Shown: one piece after another, positions 58,163 to 60,799 of the stretch
How positions within the stretch are numbered: the stretch's first letter is position 1
Layout of the letters: every line of letters starts with the position of its first letter
IMG/VR virus record: IMGVR_UViG_3300047510_003167
Coordinates: 1 to 64,000 of that record
Length of the DNA: 64,000 bases
DNA from: a virus
Strand: one strand, 5' to 3'
Translations under genes and position numbers: made by a program
The notes under the pieces: model-generated
The model's input: the letters and a program-made list of their open reading frames with translations, nothing else
Databases searched by the model: none
Told to the model about the DNA's origin: nothing

Positions 58163-58369
58163 ATGGCATTATCTTCTCAAGTTAAAGAAGCTGTCAATCA
58201 ATCAGCCAGTGCCTTGCGTGAGGGCCTTGCTTTTGCCGCACGCACTGAACACCCTGTTGTAATTAGCACGATTACCGACATCTTGGTACGGCTTGAATCA
58301 CTTGAGTCCATGGAAGAAATCATGGAAAAGTTTGGCAAACCCCGCGACCTTCCTTCATTCTTTGGCTGA
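58163..58369 (+). CDS. Small hypothetical protein (MALSSQ...)
   Basis: ATG at 58163 within ORF 58118..58369; TATACT upstream. Confidence 0.6.
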   Translation: MALSSQVKEAVNQSASALREGLAFAARTEHPVVISTITDILVRLESLESMEEIMEKFGKPRDLPSFFG

Positions 58370-58535
58370 CTTTAAAGTTCCAAGCGACCAACAACGCCTT
58401 GAGAATTACTTCTGGGAACTAGAACGTCTTATCCCTAATCCGGGAAAAGACTGGGCCAAGGCTGCGAAACCATGCAAGTGGGCAAAGATACTAAAAGAAA
58501 AAGCCAATCGCAAGGGAGGCGAGCCCGGTAAATGA
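58362..58535 (+). CDS. Small hypothetical protein (TTG start)
   Basis: Overlaps the upstream stop; ends KGGEPGK. Confidence 0.5.
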   Translation: MADFKVPSDQQRLENYFWELERLIPNPGKDWAKAAKPCKWAKILKEKANRKGGEPGK

Positions 58536-58572
58536 TTTTGTGCTATTGTAAGGAAAGCACAAAACACCTCTA

Positions 58573-59181
58573 ATGCAAAAACTGTGTCGTGAATGCGGTA
58601 TTAGAAAACCGCACGAAAATTTTCAAAATAAAGGAGTTACATCTTCTGGCAATATAAAAAGAAGTAGTGTTTGTAAAGAGTGCAGCTCTATTCTTAATCG
58701 TCGTTTTAAACTTTTGTATGGCGTAGATGGACAAAAACAGTGTTCCAAATGCGCTCATTATTTAGATTGGGATTGTTTTAGAAAAAGAAAACAAGATGGC
58801 AAAACGTATTTACACTCTTCTTGTAAAACTTGCAACAAAATAAAATGGGACAAATGGGTAGAAAATAATAAAGAGCATTATCAAAAAATTAAAAAACAAG
58901 GTCAAAATATATTTCATCATGAACACAAGAAATACGAACGAAGAGGCATTACAAAAGAACAATATGAATTTGTTTTTAAATTACAAGAGGGAGTTTGCGC
59001 AATTTGCCAAGAATTACCTAAAGATAATCAATCTTTAGCAATGGATCACAACCATAAAACCAATGAATTTAGAGGATTACTGTGCAAAGAATGTAATAGA
59101 GCTCTGGGCTTGTTTGGTGATAATATAGATGTATTGACAAACGCAGTCATTTATCTTAAAGAACGAGGCAGCTATGGCTGA
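58573..59181 (+). CDS. Endonuclease VII-family nuclease, free-standing homing-endonuclease-like
   Basis: Two CxxC...CxxC fingers plus QEGVCAIC...MDHNH....RGLLCKECNRALG.F.DN; markedly AT-rich. Confidence 0.88.
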   Translation: MQKLCRECGIRKPHENFQNKGVTSSGNIKRSSVCKECSSILNRRFKLLYGVDGQKQCSKCAHYLDWDCFRKRKQDGKTYLHSSCKTCNKIKWDKWVENNKEHYQKIKKQGQNIFHHEHKKYERRGITKEQYEFVFKLQEGVCAICQELPKDNQSLAMDHNHKTNEFRGLLCKECNRALGLFGDNIDVLTNAVIYLKERGSYG

Positions 59182-59482
59182 AGATAAAAGCAAGTACACA
59201 AAACCTGACTTACGTGAACGTATTAAAAATCGCGTAATGCGCGAAGGCCGGGGTGGAAAACCAGGGGAATGGTCGTAGCCGTGAGGCTAAATAACTTCGG
59301 CACGTAAAGCTCAACTGGTTGCTCAGCAATATAAAGAAGCCGGTGGCGGATATAAAGGCGGCAAGGGTGAGAAGCAAAAGTCTTTAGAGAAGTGGGGAGA
59401 AGAAAAGTGGCAGACCAAGGATGAATACGAGAAGCGCTCCAAAGCTAAGTCTGCAGCCAAAAAATATAAGGAGAATAAGTAA
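59174..59482 (+). CDS. Conserved small basic protein (DUF5872-like N-half) interrupted by a 24-nt stop-containing insert; candidate translational bypass
   Basis: MAEDKSKYTKPDLRERIK...GGKPGEWS [TAG CCG TGA GGC TAA ATA ACT TCG] ARKAQLVAQQYKEAGGGYKG...KWQTK; both sides are in the same frame. Confidence 0.75.
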
Positions 59483-60192
59483 TGGACGCTCGTCAACAAG
59501 CTCAAAGCTTTTTAAAAACTTTTAATTTACAAGAAGCAAAAGATAAAATTATTCGTTCGTCACAGCTTTCAATAAATAGCGGCGGATATGAATTACCTGG
59601 AGCAACTTGGCGACAGCTTACCAATCAAATAGAAAAAGAAGAAAAACAAATACCTTTAGTTGCAAAAAATAAAATAGTTGAAAAACAATCTTTAAATCTA
59701 TTAAAACAACAAAATCTTCAACAAAAAATACAAGCAAATAAAGAAGATTTAAGAGCACAAGCCCATAAAGCTTTATCGACTAATCCGGCTGTTAAGTTAA
59801 ACACTAATCAAGTTATTAGCGATAGTTGGCTTCCCGGTCAAGCCAGTGCAGCAGCTCATTCTTACAAAGAAGATGTTTTGTCTTATGCATTAGAAGCTTC
59901 TAGAATTAGAAATATGCCAATTCAAAAAGCTGTTCAAGAAGCTGTTCAAAATGTCTCCCCTTCTTCTTATTTAGGAAACGTGCCTTTAAATGCTGGAGAA
60001 ACTACTCAGATAGCAACAGCCGCAAGTAATCCTTATTTTCAAAGGCTTGTAGAATCAGATGAGTTAGGGTATAGCCCAAGAGAAGCCCTGGAAATTTATA
60101 GTAAAACAGATCCAAAATTTTTATACGGAGCAGATAATTTGCGTACGCAAATTAAAAAAGAAGATTTTGACGATGAATGGGAAATGTATTAA
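59482..60192 (+). CDS. Hypothetical AT-rich protein
   Basis: 236 aa, TAATG-coupled on both sides. Confidence 0.65.
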   Translation: MDARQQAQSFLKTFNLQEAKDKIIRSSQLSINSGGYELPGATWRQLTNQIEKEEKQIPLVAKNKIVEKQSLNLLKQQNLQQKIQANKEDLRAQAHKALSTNPAVKLNTNQVISDSWLPGQASAAAHSYKEDVLSYALEASRIRNMPIQKAVQEAVQNVSPSSYLGNVPLNAGETTQIATAASNPYFQRLVESDELGYSPREALEIYSKTDPKFLYGADNLRTQIKKEDFDDEWEMY

Positions 60193-60401
60193 TGGCTGAC
60201 AAAGCAATTCAACCTGGGTATACCAAGCGTTACTTACCAGAAAAAGCGTGGGCTTCTTTATCGAAAGAAGAACGGGAGGAAACTGATCGCAAGAAACGAG
60301 AAGGTAGCAGGCAAGGAAAACAATTTATTCCTAATACGGAAACCGCCAAGAAAGCTGGTAAGGCTGCACGAGCTGCAAAGCATTATAAAAAGAAAAAGTA
60401 A
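60192..60401 (+). CDS. Small basic protein (DUF5872-like C-half)
   Basis: KAIQPGYTKRYLPEKAWASLSKEEREETDRKKREGSRQGKQFIPNT. Confidence 0.7.
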   Translation: MADKAIQPGYTKRYLPEKAWASLSKEEREETDRKKREGSRQGKQFIPNTETAKKAGKAARAAKHYKKKK

Positions 60402-60509: not shown

Positions 60510-60723
60510 GGTCAAAACTTTGCTTGGATACGCCTGGTTAACTCACAGCCCGATTGTCGGTACGTCAAGCACTTTTGATCCATCCCACCCCTATTGCTCT
60601 GTCGGTAGGGTGCAGCCAGCCTGCTGGTTTGCGTAACACCCCCTAAGCCTATCTCTCATTATGGATTCATTCGCTATTCGCGAATGGCAAATGGATTTAG
60701 AGATGAAGCTCAAACCTGGGGGT
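60510..60723 (+). ncRNA. Candidate structured non-coding RNA
   Basis: Multiple nested helices with G-U pairs on the + strand (see findings). Confidence 0.5.
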
Positions 60724-60727
60724 CACT

Positions 60728-60799
60728 CGGTCGGTAGTCCATTGGTAAGGACAGGGCGACAAGCTACGTAGATAGTTGGTTCGATTCCAACACGACCGA
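60728..60799 (+). tRNA. tRNA-like element with a non-canonical anticodon arm (pseudo-tRNA)
   Basis: Acceptor CGGTCG/CGACCG, T8A9, D arm GTCC-ATTGGTAA-GGAC, T arm GTTGG-TTCGATT-CCAAC; the anticodon stem does not pair. Confidence 0.65.

What the first reader, a model, noticed from the sequence alone, without database searches (positions are those of the whole stretch)
59174..59482. Candidate programmed ribosomal bypassing element (24 nt) in a phage gene, next to a homing-type endonuclease
Seen in the sequence: the gene starting at ATG 59174 reads ...GGKPGE-W-S (TCG, 59273-75). It is then interrupted by TAG CCG TGA GGC TAA ATA ACT TCG (59276-59299) and resumes in the same frame with A-R-K-A-Q-L-V-A-Q-Q-Y-K-E-A-G-G-G-Y to TAA 59480-82. 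Removing exactly these 24 nt restores GGKPGEWSARKAQ, which I recall as the contiguous conserved core of DUF5872-like proteins. The insert has a take-off codon TCG, an immediate stop, a perfect TAGCC-GTGA-GGCTA hairpin (GNRA loop) starting at that stop, a GAGG mini-SD, and a matched landing codon TCG. An alternative helix, CGT(A)GCCG/CGGCACG (59274-81 with 59298-304), would bring the two TCG codons together. All three stop codons occur in frame, so readthrough or code reassignment cannot explain it. Both coding flanks look undecayed. Established: matched take-off/landing codons, a stop and a hairpin define T4 gene 60 bypassing and Magnusiomyces mitochondrial byps, and the T4 gap lies beside the mobA homing endonuclease. 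Inference: this is a new, very compact hop element giving a 94 aa product. It may destroy the target site of the EndoVII gene (58573-59181) that overlaps this gene's start.
Basis: partly seen in the sequence, partly recalled or inferred. Interest (0 to 1): 0.92.

Follow-up and report, generated by a model that had tools for sequence, protein, structure and literature searches.

The report
Homing-endonuclease cassette with ribosome-hop gap
A small phage gene is interrupted by 21 untranslatable bases that arrived together with a selfish nuclease gene, and 56 wild versions of this interruption indicate that ribosomes hop over it, which would be a second, independent family of the rare translational bypass known from phage T4.

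Summary
The gap is the 3' end of a 765-nt mobile cassette (window 58535-59299). The cassette holds a stop and a 9-bp hairpin, an Endonuclease_7-type homing endonuclease, its own copy of the gene's first 34 codons, UAG, a 5-bp tetraloop hairpin, an AU-rich spacer and a landing codon. A filled site (L017) and an empty site (L020) with 96-99% identical flanks show that the cassette replaces 4 nt at the Trp33/Ser34 codons.

I found 56 distinct alleles with 25 different gaps of 20-30 nt. Eighteen alleles have gap lengths that are not multiples of 3, and in every complete allele the downstream ORF is open in the frame set by the landing codon. The take-off codon is TCG in 56/56 and the landing codon is TCG in 53/56 (TCT in 3). 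Insert-less alleles use TCG in only 4/92. The cassette's N-terminal copy has dN/dS of 0.07-0.10.

Programmed bypassing is the best explanation (about 0.78), but no RNA or protein data exist. The endonuclease, host gene and take-off codon all differ from the T4 gene 60/MobA element. Earlier notes of this scan list similar, unverified endonuclease-linked gaps on other DNA.

The parts
58512..58535 (+). Decayed relic of the gene's original N-terminal end (K-G-G-E-P-G-K-stop). It is fused in frame to the upstream ORF 58293-58535. The TGA at 58533-35 marks the 5' junction of the cassette.
   Evidence: In 27 other alleles a relic N-terminal ORF (25 ending GG.PGQ-stop with CAG TGA, L122 and L089 GGKAGQ-stop, and L137 GGKPGY-stop) lies in the same place just upstream of the endonuclease. 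In L017 the relic is 99% identical to the N-terminus of empty-site L020.
58535..59299 (+). The whole mobile cassette (765 nt), from the junction A of TGA to the landing codon.
   Evidence: Boundaries are inferred from L017 (filled) against L020 (empty). A 766-nt cassette replaces 4 nt (the last G of the Trp codon plus the Ser codon AGT), and the flanks are 96-99% identical. The same junction word occurs in the window.
58536..58564 (+). A 9-bp perfect inverted repeat (58536-44 with 58556-64, 11-nt loop) between the relic stop and the endonuclease start codon. Its role is unknown.
   Evidence: Read. The junction word is shared by 15 cassettes, the window included. It was not studied further.
58573..59181 (+). 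Free-standing homing-type endonuclease, 202 aa, Endonuclease_7 (His-Me finger) domain at residues 120-196.
   Evidence: Pfam PF02945, E 1.1e-20. It is full-length at the same place in 38 of 56 insert alleles, with 8 C-terminal remnants, 3 absent, 4 cut by a contig end and 3 not assessable. It is absent from that place in 53 of 53 insert-less loci. It has no similarity to T4-type MobA.
59174..59275 (+). The cassette's own copy of the first 34 codons of the DUF5872-like gene ('homR'), ending in the take-off codon TCG (59273-75). The start overlaps the endonuclease stop by 8 nt.
   Evidence: dN/dS is 0.066 (dS 0.94) in clade 1 and 0.10 (dS 1.57) in clade 2. On the N-terminal tree the 51 cassette copies need only 2 changes of label, against a shuffled mean of 37.
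59264..59269 (+). SD-like GGGGAA (GGR GAR) 3 nt upstream of the take-off codon; the GGRG core ends 5 nt before it.
   Evidence: The Gly codon is GGA or GGG in 56 of 56 insert alleles, against 31 of 92 insert-less alleles. Glu replaces the usual Gln (Gln in 86 of 92 insert-less). Any function is inferred.
59276..59289 (+). UAG stop in the A-site position and a 5-bp hairpin with a GNRA tetraloop (TAGCC-GTGA-GGCTA) that starts at that stop.
   Evidence: The hairpin is intact in 55 of 56 alleles, with loops GTAA 35, GTGA 14, GGGA 2, TTAG 2, GAAA 1 and GCAA 1. The stem has the same letters as the tip of the T4 gene 60 take-off stem-loop, read from NC_000866.
59290..59296 (+). AU-rich spacer (AATAACT), variable in length and sequence among alleles.
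   Evidence: There are 22 distinct spacers of 6-16 nt with composition A 99, T 92, C 28, G 4. None contains a TC dinucleotide, against 8.6 expected, and 0 of 10,000 shuffles were as low.
59297..59299 (+). Landing codon TCG, the last 3 nt of the cassette.
   Evidence: TCG in 53 of 56 alleles and TCT in 3. Homology to empty-site alleles resumes at 59300 (table 7, 66).
59300..59482 (+). Recipient-derived C-terminal 60 codons plus the TAA stop.
   Evidence: The window has no ATG, GTG or TTG in this frame. All 53 alleles that do not run off a contig have a complete ORF here. dN/dS is 0.067 in clade 2.

Best explanation
This is a mobile homing-endonuclease cassette that carries a programmed translational bypass (ribosome hop).

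DNA level (shown by comparison). A 765-nt element has inserted into a small DUF5872-like phage gene at the Trp33/Ser34 codons. It leaves the original 33-codon N-terminus upstream as a dead relic. It brings an Endonuclease_7-type nuclease gene, a replacement copy of the first 34 codons, and a 20-30-nt non-coding gap that ends in a landing codon.

Translation level (inferred).
1. Ribosomes translate the 34 replacement codons.
2. With peptidyl-tRNA-Ser on UCG in the P site, the A site holds UAG, which is the first base pair of a 5-bp tetraloop hairpin. By analogy with T4 gene 60, this hairpin hinders RF1.
3. The peptidyl-tRNA lets go and the mRNA slides through an AU-rich spacer that holds no UCN triplet.
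4. The tRNA re-pairs at the first UCG (UCU in 3 alleles), and translation continues with Ala35. The product is one 94-aa chain (34 + 60) with the family's conserved Trp-Ser-Ala junction restored.

Reason for the gap (inferred from the T4 MobA precedent). Without it, the junction between the replacement N-terminus and the C-terminus would recreate the nuclease's homing site, so the gap makes the carrier immune to its own nuclease.
For: 1. Gap length and frame. There are 56 distinct alleles in 94 loci, with 25 distinct gaps of 20 (2), 21 (15), 24 (22), 25 (7), 26 (7), 29 (2) and 30 (1) nt. Eighteen alleles have lengths that are not multiples of 3. In all 53 alleles that do not run off a contig, the C-terminal ORF is complete in the frame set by the landing codon.
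2. Take-off codon. It is TCG in 27 of 27 loci from a protein-based search, in 50 of 50 hits of a scan with the codon left free, and in 15 of 15 family hits of a scan blind to the hairpin.
3. Landing codon. It is TCG in 53 of 56 alleles and TCT in 3.
4. Serine codon in insert-less alleles (92): TCT 43, AGT 18, TCA 14, TCC 7, AGC 6, TCG 4. TCG is also the rarest Ser codon in the genome, 126 of 1760.
5. Local conservation. Neighbouring third-codon positions have 0.6-1.8 bits of entropy, while the third base of the take-off codon has 0 and that of the landing codon 0.28.
6. Stop codon. It is always TAG. A scan for TAA or TGA after the same context gave 0 family hits among 29.
7. Hairpin. It is intact in 55 of 56 alleles. 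All loops are GNRA or UUAG even when the loop was left free in the scan. The stem letters equal the tip of the T4 take-off stem-loop. Cryo-EM shows that tip as a short hairpin in the A site that holds the stop codon (PMC5462505, passages read).
8. Spacer. It is 86% A+U and has no TC dinucleotide in 22 distinct spacers.
9. Selection on the cassette-borne N-terminus. dN/dS is 0.066 and 0.10 at dS of 0.94 and 1.57. This copy travels with the cassette (2 label changes, shuffled mean 37), so it evolved in the interrupted state and is under protein-level selection.
10. Start codons. No ATG, GTG or TTG exists anywhere in the landing frame in 9 of 44 alleles, the window included, and none before codon +10 in 23 of 44.
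11. Codons after landing. In the unconstrained scans the five codons after landing (Ala-Arg-Lys-Ala-Gln) are kept while their synonymous sites vary.
12. Persistence. The gap persists intact in 11 alleles whose nuclease is a remnant or gone, and in the window, whose relic has decayed.
13. One domain. Pfam DUF5872 aligns uninterrupted relatives in one stretch across the junction. An AlphaFold model of relative L027 (pLDDT 71) puts the break between helix 11-24 and helix 35-47 of one helical hairpin.
14. Mobility. Filled and empty sites are documented, and the insert state needs at least 13 changes on the C-terminal tree.
Against: - There is no RNA or protein evidence of any kind.
- The hairpin stem never varies, so there is no covariation support.
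- One allele (L018, identical to L227) has a degenerate hairpin but intact ORFs, so either the hairpin is dispensable or that allele is dead.
- The SD-like AGG in the gap lies 9-19 nt from the landing codon, not the 5-7 nt reported for T4-type cassettes.
- Conservation of the C-terminal half is confounded by recent homing into intact alleles. For example, L017 and L020 are nearly identical downstream.
- Three alleles land on TCT, which needs a tRNA-Ser that reads both UCG and UCU. This is unknown for the host.
- Clade-2 alleles and L133/L143 have an ATG at codon +6. L087/L096 have an ATG-started ORF in the landing frame. Most in-frame alleles have ATA or ATT just before the landing codon. Restart is therefore not excluded everywhere.
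- The nascent chain is only 34 residues long and is unlike the gp60 signal.
- Several invariances (TAG, Glu codon, Ser-type landing codon, Ala-Arg-Lys-Ala-Gln) were partly built into my search patterns and the regex. For those I rely on the less constrained.
Confidence: 0.78

Rival explanations
1. Split gene. The ribosome terminates at UAG and releases a 34-aa peptide. The C-terminal 60 residues are made separately by restart (termination-reinitiation or 70S sliding), and the two pieces assemble.
For: Most in-frame alleles carry ATA or ATT one or two codons before the landing codon. Clade-2 alleles and L133/L143 have ATG at codon +6. L087/L096 have an ATG inside GAATGG that opens the landing frame. 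An AGG/GAGG sits in the 3' arm of the hairpin. Genes split by homing endonucleases that still work as two chains are known (MobE in nrdA of phage Aeh1, as described in section 12 of bioRxiv 10.1101/2022.08.31.505936).
Against: No single start solution fits all alleles. Nine of 44 alleles have no ATG, GTG or TTG in the landing frame, and L004 has no near-cognate start either. A restart at +6 would leave the Ser-Ala-Arg-Lys-Ala-Gln codons untranslated, yet they are conserved while their synonymous sites vary. Restart does not explain why both flanking Ser codons are the rare TCG, or why TC is absent from every spacer. The break lies inside one small helical hairpin domain.
Confidence: 0.09
2. 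Dead gene hitch-hiking with a selfish nuclease. The insert simply inactivates a dispensable gene. The downstream half looks intact only because each homing event is recent.
For: Homing is recent in some loci (L017 against L020, 96-99% flanks). Insert-bearing and insert-less C-termini are interleaved on the tree (at least 13 changes). The gene has no known function, and no fold match was found.
Against: The cassette's own N-terminal copy, which never exists without the gap, has dN/dS of 0.07-0.10 at dS of about 1-1.5. None of 53 complete alleles has a broken C-terminus, and this includes 11 alleles with a decayed or lost nuclease and the window with its decayed relic. Thirteen clade-2 alleles have C-termini with dN/dS 0.067, and no insert-less member fell among them in my sample. 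A mere disruptor would not need matched rare codons, a tetraloop hairpin or a TC-free spacer.
Confidence: 0.07
3. The 20-30 nt are removed from the RNA (a miniature intron or another processing step), so that ordinary translation follows.
For: I have no RNA data to exclude removal. The direct repeat TCG...TCG would allow precise excision.
Against: Rfam finds no group I intron or any other family at gathering score in the 64-kb window, and nothing near the gap at E up to 1. No placement of the boundaries gives both a U before the 5' splice site and a G as the last intron base (read; the rule itself is recalled knowledge). A 14-nt hairpin plus an AU-rich tail has no known catalytic or protein-guided splicing precedent in bacteria.
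Confidence: 0.05

Closest known systems
Phage T4 gene 60 50-nt bypass within the MobA homing-endonuclease element (Manning & Atkins, bioRxiv 10.1101/2022.08.31.505936, Results and section 12 read; T4 sequence read from NC_000866)
   Same: The architecture matches. A homing endonuclease inserts inside a conserved gene. The downstream ORF starts a few nt before the nuclease's stop (8 nt here, 8-32 nt there). The element carries its own homologous replacement of the target region (homR), followed by take-off codon, UAG, a CC-tetraloop-GG hairpin that starts at the stop, an AU-rich stretch and a matched landing codon. The element ends at the landing codon. The nuclease is often decayed or lost while the gap persists. 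The first 14 nt of the gap differ from T4's only in the tetraloop.
   Different: The nuclease is unrelated in sequence (Endonuclease_7 against the MobA HNH type; BLASTP E 6.5). The host gene is a 94-aa DUF5872-like protein, not topoisomerase. Take-off is at Ser UCG, not Gly or Asp codons. The gap is 20-30 nt, not 50. The hairpin has 5-6 bp, against about 10 bp predicted for T4. There is no SD-like triplet 5-7 nt before landing. An SD-like GGRGAR lies before the take-off codon. The whole N-terminus (34 codons) is replaced and the old one is left as a dead relic, rather than being used as a second subunit. Only the T4 case is proven experimentally.
Aeromonas-phage clade of MobA cassettes with a 20-nt gap and reduced stem-loop (same preprint, Results part 2)
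   Same: It shows that short gaps of about 20 nt occur naturally in endonuclease-borne bypass cassettes.
   Different: Those cassettes lie in Topo2L with MobA, have a much reduced take-off hairpin and use GAC codons. Here the hairpin is the best-conserved part.
Mitochondrial 'byp' elements of Magnusiomyces
   Same: They are short (tens of nt) mobile inserts with matched take-off and landing codons and a hairpin, and they are hopped by ribosomes.
   Different: There are many copies per genome in many genes, with no linked endonuclease, in mitochondrial translation. Here there is one copy per genome, tied to one gene and one nuclease.
Genes split by free-standing homing endonucleases without bypass (MobE in nrdA of phage Aeh1; described in section 12 of the same preprint)
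   Same: The nuclease inserts inside an ORF and the element supplies new termini that rescue function.
   Different: Those give two polypeptides that assemble. Here the upstream piece is discarded and the downstream gene is rebuilt with a coding gap.

Membership tests
Programmed translational bypassing (T4 gene 60 type mechanism) | Matched take-off and landing codons readable by one tRNA | tested here: met
   TCG/TCG in 53 of 56 alleles and TCG/TCT in 3. The take-off codon was left free in the scans and was TCG in 50/50 and 15/15.
Programmed translational bypassing (T4 gene 60 type mechanism) | [quoted passage not shown] | tested here: met
   TAG in 27 of 27 loci of the protein-based sample. 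There were 0 family hits with TAA or TGA among 29.
Programmed translational bypassing (T4 gene 60 type mechanism) | Stable stem-loop that includes the stop codon (take-off stem-loop) | tested here: met
   The 5-bp stem with a GNRA or UUAG loop is present in 55 of 56 alleles. Energy is -7.1 kcal/mol in the window and -10.4 kcal/mol in clade 2. 99% of cells are paired, but there is no covariation.
Programmed translational bypassing (T4 gene 60 type mechanism) | SD-like triplet 5-7 nt 5' of the landing codon | tested here: not met
   The only purine-rich triplet (AGG in the 3' arm of the hairpin) lies 9-19 nt upstream of the landing codon, computed from the gaps listed.
Programmed translational bypassing (T4 gene 60 type mechanism) | Nascent-peptide signal that holds the peptidyl-tRNA | not testable with these tools
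   The 34-residue N-terminal copy is conserved but unlike gp60, so nothing can be said about tunnel contacts.
Programmed translational bypassing (T4 gene 60 type mechanism) | One polypeptide made from the two ORFs | not testable with these tools
   No RNA holder was listed and no proteomics is available.
MobA mobile element (homologous family of T4 gene 60 cassettes) | MobA-type HNH endonuclease inserted in the Topo2L gene | tested here: not met
   The window's nuclease is PF02945. MobA of phage HY03 gives only a weak PF01844 hit and no BLASTP similarity (E 6.5). The host gene is DUF5872-like.
Free-standing homing endonuclease cassette | Filled and empty sites in otherwise near-identical genomes; the element is present or absent at one precise point | tested here: met
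   L017 against L020: 766 nt replace 4 nt and the flanks are 96-99% identical. The nuclease is found only beside insert alleles: 0 of 53 insert-less loci have it there, and 38 of 49 assessable insert alleles have it full-length.
Free-standing homing endonuclease cassette | The nuclease cleaves the empty site and not the filled site | not testable with these tools
   This needs a bench assay.
Pfam DUF5872 (PF19197) | Score at or above the gathering cutoff of 27.5 bits | tested here: inconclusive
   The window read through with X scores 18.3 bits. Insert-less relatives score 25.6, 23.2, 27.9 and 21.6 bits, and only L062 passes.
Pfam Endonuclease_7 (PF02945) | Score above the gathering cutoff of 23.6 bits | tested here: met
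   73.7 bits, E 1.1e-20, profile positions 4-81 of 82.

The most novel reading that the evidence does not exclude
The UAG/CC-tetraloop-GG/CUA hairpin followed by an AU-rich tail is a portable bypass 'plug' that moves between, or is repeatedly recruited by, unrelated homing-endonuclease cassettes. It appears here with an Endonuclease_7 gene in a DUF5872-like gene and in T4 with MobA in topoisomerase. If so, recoding by ribosome hopping would be a general self-immunity device of selfish nucleases rather than a T4 oddity. The natural series of 25 gaps (20-30 nt, Ser UCG, 14 structured nt, 34-residue nascent chain) would define a near-minimal bypass signal.
Probability: 0.3. Interest if true: 0.92.

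Novelty: new variant of a known kind. Interest (0 to 1): 0.8.

Why it matters
Efficient long-range translational bypassing has one proven bacterial example, T4 gene 60. The 2022 preprint that I read calls that cassette 'unique', and all its relatives sit in the same topoisomerase gene with the same element.

A second family would differ in nuclease, host gene, take-off codon and gap length while sharing the same logic. It would show that the solution 'selfish nuclease plus coding gap' evolved or spread more than once. It offers 25 natural gap variants as a ready-made mutational series. The variants cover spacer length 6-16 nt, five GNRA loops plus UUAG, a 5- or 6-bp stem, and a UCG or UCU landing codon. 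It also gives a much smaller signal on which to dissect take-off, sliding and landing.

It matters for annotation too. Gene callers will report a 34-aa ORF and no downstream gene. My library searches found no description of this element.

Synechococcus phage S-EIVl, which encodes an insert-less homologue, is the only cultured phage that one search found with DNA similarity to this region (74.7% over 165 nt), and its host offers a possible test system.

Tried and rejected
- Read-through or a changed genetic code is rejected. The window has three different in-frame stops, and 18 of 56 alleles have gaps that are not multiples of 3.
- Two compensating frameshifts are rejected. The -1 frame is open across the window's gap, but I saw no slippery site, and gap lengths of 20-30 nt would each need a different solution.
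- An intrinsic terminator at the gap is rejected. The consensus scan found none there.
I left it as unsupported.
- Longer folds of the window (66 and 141 nt) gave window-specific helices that I did not find conserved by eye in alignment A1. I did not pursue them.
- Group I intron or a borrowed ribozyme: Rfam found nothing at gathering score in 64 kb and nothing near the gap at E up to 1. The last 8.5 kb of the genome were not scanned with Rfam.
- RNA evidence: no RNA holder was listed, so expression and RNA processing could not be examined.
- Read laying used assembled contigs only, so rare variants and transcript ends are invisible.
- Function of the protein: Foldseek against the PDB gave no match with E at or below 0.001, on a model of moderate confidence (pLDDT 71).
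- A phage-encoded tRNA-Ser was sought and not found.
- Complex prediction, the large protein searches and the protein atlas were not used.
- Supplementary files of the preprint (its tables of cassettes) were not opened. They might list cases outside topoisomerase that the main text does not mention.
- My note says the relic occurs in 'at least 30 of 56' alleles. A recount gives 28 of 56, and the report uses 28.
- In one search my script mis-scored L127 as 'none' because of a negative slice. It has no upstream DNA, so I count it as not assessable.
Full report
**What is in the window.**
ATG 59174 opens 34 codons that end in GAA TGG TCG (TCG = 59273-75). Then follow TAG CCG TGA GGC TAA ATA ACT TCG (59276-59299). 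The same frame runs on for 60 codons to TAA 59480-82. The upstream ORF 58573-59181 is an Endonuclease_7 protein (PF02945, E 1.1e-20), and its stop overlaps the gene's start by 8 nt. The window is the first 64 kb of a 72.5-kb virus record. By DNA the only cultured relatives found are Synechococcus phages, at 69-75% over about 165 nt.

**The insert is real DNA and is widespread.**
- Contigs from three other studies span 58900-59485 with no gap at about 96% identity. In the same samples, insert-less alleles join the window exactly at 59300.
- A protein-based search of viral contigs with the X-masked read-through found 457 relatives, of which 80 were kept. Of these 80, 27 carry an insert at the same codon and 53 do not.
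- I then ran four pattern scans.
  - The first fixed the hairpin stem and the first and last loop base: 48 stretches, 38 in this gene and 10 unrelated.
  - The second left the take-off codon and the loop free: 50 stretches, all in this gene.
  - The fourth asked for TAA or TGA instead of TAG: 29 stretches, none in this gene.
- Pooled and de-duplicated, this gives 94 loci and 56 distinct alleles.

**Anatomy across the 56 alleles.**
The regex fixed GG. GAR TGG, TAG, a Ser-type landing codon and the five following codons. The less constrained searches show the same picture.

| Feature | Result |
|---|---|
| Take-off codon | TCG 56/56 |
| Next codon | TAG |
| Hairpin TAGCC-NNNN-GGCTA | 55/56 |
| Loops | GTAA 35, GTGA 14, GGGA 2, TTAG 2, GAAA 1, GCAA 1 |
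| Degenerate hairpin | 1 allele (L018, identical to L227) |
| Landing codon | TCG 53, TCT 3 |
| Distinct gap sequences | 25 |
| Gap lengths (nt: alleles) | 20: 2, 21: 15, 24: 22, 25: 7, 26: 7, 29: 2, 30: 1 |

- Eighteen alleles have gaps that are not multiples of three. In all 53 alleles that do not run off a contig, the C-terminal ORF (47-62 codons, one of 120) is open in the frame set by the landing codon. This alone removes read-through and code reassignment.
- The spacer after the hairpin is 86% A+U. None of the 22 distinct spacers contains a TC dinucleotide, against 8.6 expected, and 0 of 10,000 shuffles were as low. The spacers are related to each other, so that figure is not a true probability. 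The first UCN triplet that a scanning peptidyl-tRNA-Ser could meet is therefore the landing codon.
- In 92 distinct insert-less alleles the same serine is TCT 43, AGT 18, TCA 14, TCC 7, AGC 6 and TCG 4. TCG is also the rarest Ser codon of this genome, 126 of 1760.
- Third-codon positions on both sides vary freely (0.6-1.8 bits). The third base of the take-off codon has 0 bits and that of the landing codon 0.28 bits.

**The gap is the 3' end of a mobile cassette.**
- The nuclease gene lies directly upstream in 38 of 56 alleles. It survives as a C-terminal remnant in 8, is absent in 3, is cut by a contig end in 4, and cannot be assessed in 3 (with L127 corrected by me).
- None of the 53 insert-less loci has the nuclease at that place. 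Three have a distant (32-39%) homologue more than 1.2 kb downstream.
- L017 (insert) and L020 (no insert) are 96-99% identical on both sides. L020's first 98 nt of the gene reappear in L017 upstream of the nuclease. There they end in CAG TGA instead of CAG TGG. Homology resumes at the Ala35 codon. So 766 nt have replaced 4 nt.
- Such a relic of the original N-terminus (in most cases ending GG.PGQ-stop) stands just upstream of the nuclease in 27 further alleles. The window has a decayed remnant, K-G-G-E-P-G-K-stop at 58512-58535, fused to the upstream ORF (28 of 56 in all).
- The cassette therefore consists of: junction TGA, a 9-bp hairpin, the nuclease gene, its own copy of codons 1-34, the gap, and the landing codon. 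In the window this is 58535-59299.
- On a tree of the N-terminal 75 nt, the 51 distinct cassette copies need 2 changes of label (shuffled mean 37). The relics mix freely with empty-site N-termini (13 changes, shuffled mean 13.5).
- On the C-terminal tree the insert state needs at least 13 changes, 4 of them forced by well-supported branches.
- The N-terminal copy thus travels with the nuclease and the C-terminus belongs to the recipient. That is the pattern expected of homing.

**Is the interrupted gene still read?**
- The cassette-borne N-terminal copy never exists without the gap. Its dN/dS is 0.066 (dS 0.94, 28 sequences) in the window's clade and 0.10 (dS 1.57, 14 sequences) in a second clade (pooled pairwise Nei-Gojobori, not tree-corrected).
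- The C-terminal half has pN 0.12 against a saturated pS in clade 1, and dN/dS 0.067 in clade 2.
- Not one complete allele has a broken C-terminus. This includes the 11 alleles with a decayed or missing nuclease and the window with its decayed relic.
- Independent initiation is not a general option.
  - Nine of 44 alleles, the window among them, have no ATG, GTG or TTG anywhere in the landing frame.
  - Twenty-three of 44 alleles have none before codon +10.
- Where an ATG exists at +6, the five codons before it are still conserved while their synonymous sites vary.
- Pfam aligns uninterrupted relatives to DUF5872 in one stretch across the junction.
- An AlphaFold model of relative L027 (pLDDT 71, moderate) places the break between two helices of one small hairpin domain.

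**Mechanism proposed.**
- Shown by comparison: the cassette structure, its mobility, the conserved matched codons, the stop, the hairpin and the TC-free spacer, and selection on the N-terminal copy.
- Inferred: peptidyl-tRNA-Ser leaves UCG while the UAG-containing hairpin occupies the A site. The mRNA slides 20-30 nt. The tRNA re-pairs at the next UCG or UCU, giving one 94-aa chain.
- The inference leans on T4 gene 60. Its gap, read from NC_000866, begins TAG CC TTCG GG CTA, which is the same stem with another tetraloop. Cryo-EM shows this tip as a 12-nt hairpin in the A site that holds the stop codon and hinders RF1 (PMC5462505, passages).
- A feature I did not see described in the parts of the T4 papers I read is an SD-like GGR GAR 3 nt before the take-off codon (the GGRG core ends 5 nt before it). 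The Gly codon ends in a purine in 56 of 56 insert alleles, against 31 of 92 insert-less. Glu replaces the usual Gln. Its role is unknown.
- The gap lies exactly at the point homologous to the cassette's insertion site. I therefore infer that it keeps the rebuilt gene from recreating the nuclease's homing site. This is reported for MobA and the T4 gap (section 12 of bioRxiv 10.1101/2022.08.31.505936, citing work I did not read).

**Comparison with what is known.**
- Manning and Atkins (Results and section 12 read) describe T4-type cassettes only in the Topo2L gene of myoviruses. Those carry MobA, or secondarily GIY-YIG or VSR nucleases. They use Gly or Asp take-off codons and gaps of 50 nt (20 nt in an Aeromonas clade), and the authors call the bypass cassette unique.
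- Here the nuclease is unrelated to MobA and the host gene and take-off codon differ. This is therefore not a member of the MobA element family, although it works like one.
- Five library searches found no paper on this element. 'DUF5872' occurs in one unrelated paper.
- Earlier notes of this scan list several endonuclease-linked coding gaps on other DNA, unverified or partly contested. One gap was reinterpreted as a mini group I intron. I tested that rival as far as possible, and it remains open only because no RNA data exist.

**Verdict.**
The best explanation is an endonuclease-borne bypass cassette (0.78). The rivals are split-gene restart (0.09), a dead hitch-hiking gene (0.07) and RNA-level removal (0.05). 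The class is a new variant of a known kind, and interest is 0.8.

Noticed in passing
window 59482-60401: The 74-aa ORF 60177-60401 matches the C-terminal half of long DUF5872-like proteins such as L062:2747-3142 (131 aa). In this lineage the family gene is therefore in two cistrons, separated in the window by an unrelated 236-aa ORF (59482-60192) that most related loci lack.
   Followed up: partly
L152, L154, L155, L157, L163, L216 and many others of L149-L223: Many more distant homologues stop right after GGGY(K/TS) and continue with ...SQKSL..W.. after an in-frame stop or in another frame. This is a second recurrent break point of the family. It could be a two-gene arrangement or another recoding site.
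   Followed up: no
window 58536-58564: A 9-bp perfect inverted repeat with an 11-nt loop containing AAGGA lies at the 5' end of the cassette, between the relic's stop and the nuclease ATG. The junction word recurs in 15 cassettes, the window included. It may regulate nuclease expression.
   Followed up: no
window 59264-59269 and alignment A1 columns 52-57: An SD-like GGR GAR lies 3 nt before the take-off codon (its GGRG core ends 5 nt before it) and is invariant in insert alleles (GGA 45, GGG 11 of 56). Insert-less alleles mostly have GGY CAR.
   Followed up: partly
window 60639-60797: There are sub-threshold Rfam hits: abiF RNA (29.2 bits, E 0.024) and a tRNA-Sec-like match (23.1 bits, E 0.27). 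They lie in the stretch that another first-stage note calls a tRNA-like ncRNA. ARAGORN finds no tRNA in the genome.
   Followed up: no
L084, L102, L109, L130; L086, L095, L105, L110, L128: The 18-nt word of the gap also occurs in two unrelated contexts. One is followed by GGGGAGACGGTTACA, possibly a structured RNA. The other is a hairpin right after the stop of an ORF ending ...MFFLNS.
   Followed up: no
L083:2538-2759 (Synechococcus phage S-EIVl, KJ410740): This cultured phage encodes an insert-less homologue, annotated as 73 aa starting at the residue that corresponds to Met22 of the family. The annotated start may be too far downstream.
   Followed up: no
L134/L136 versus L145/L146: These insert-bearing and insert-less alleles share an identical C-terminal tail but differ in the first ~15 codons after the landing codon. 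This suggests that co-conversion tracts sometimes extend past the cassette.
   Followed up: no
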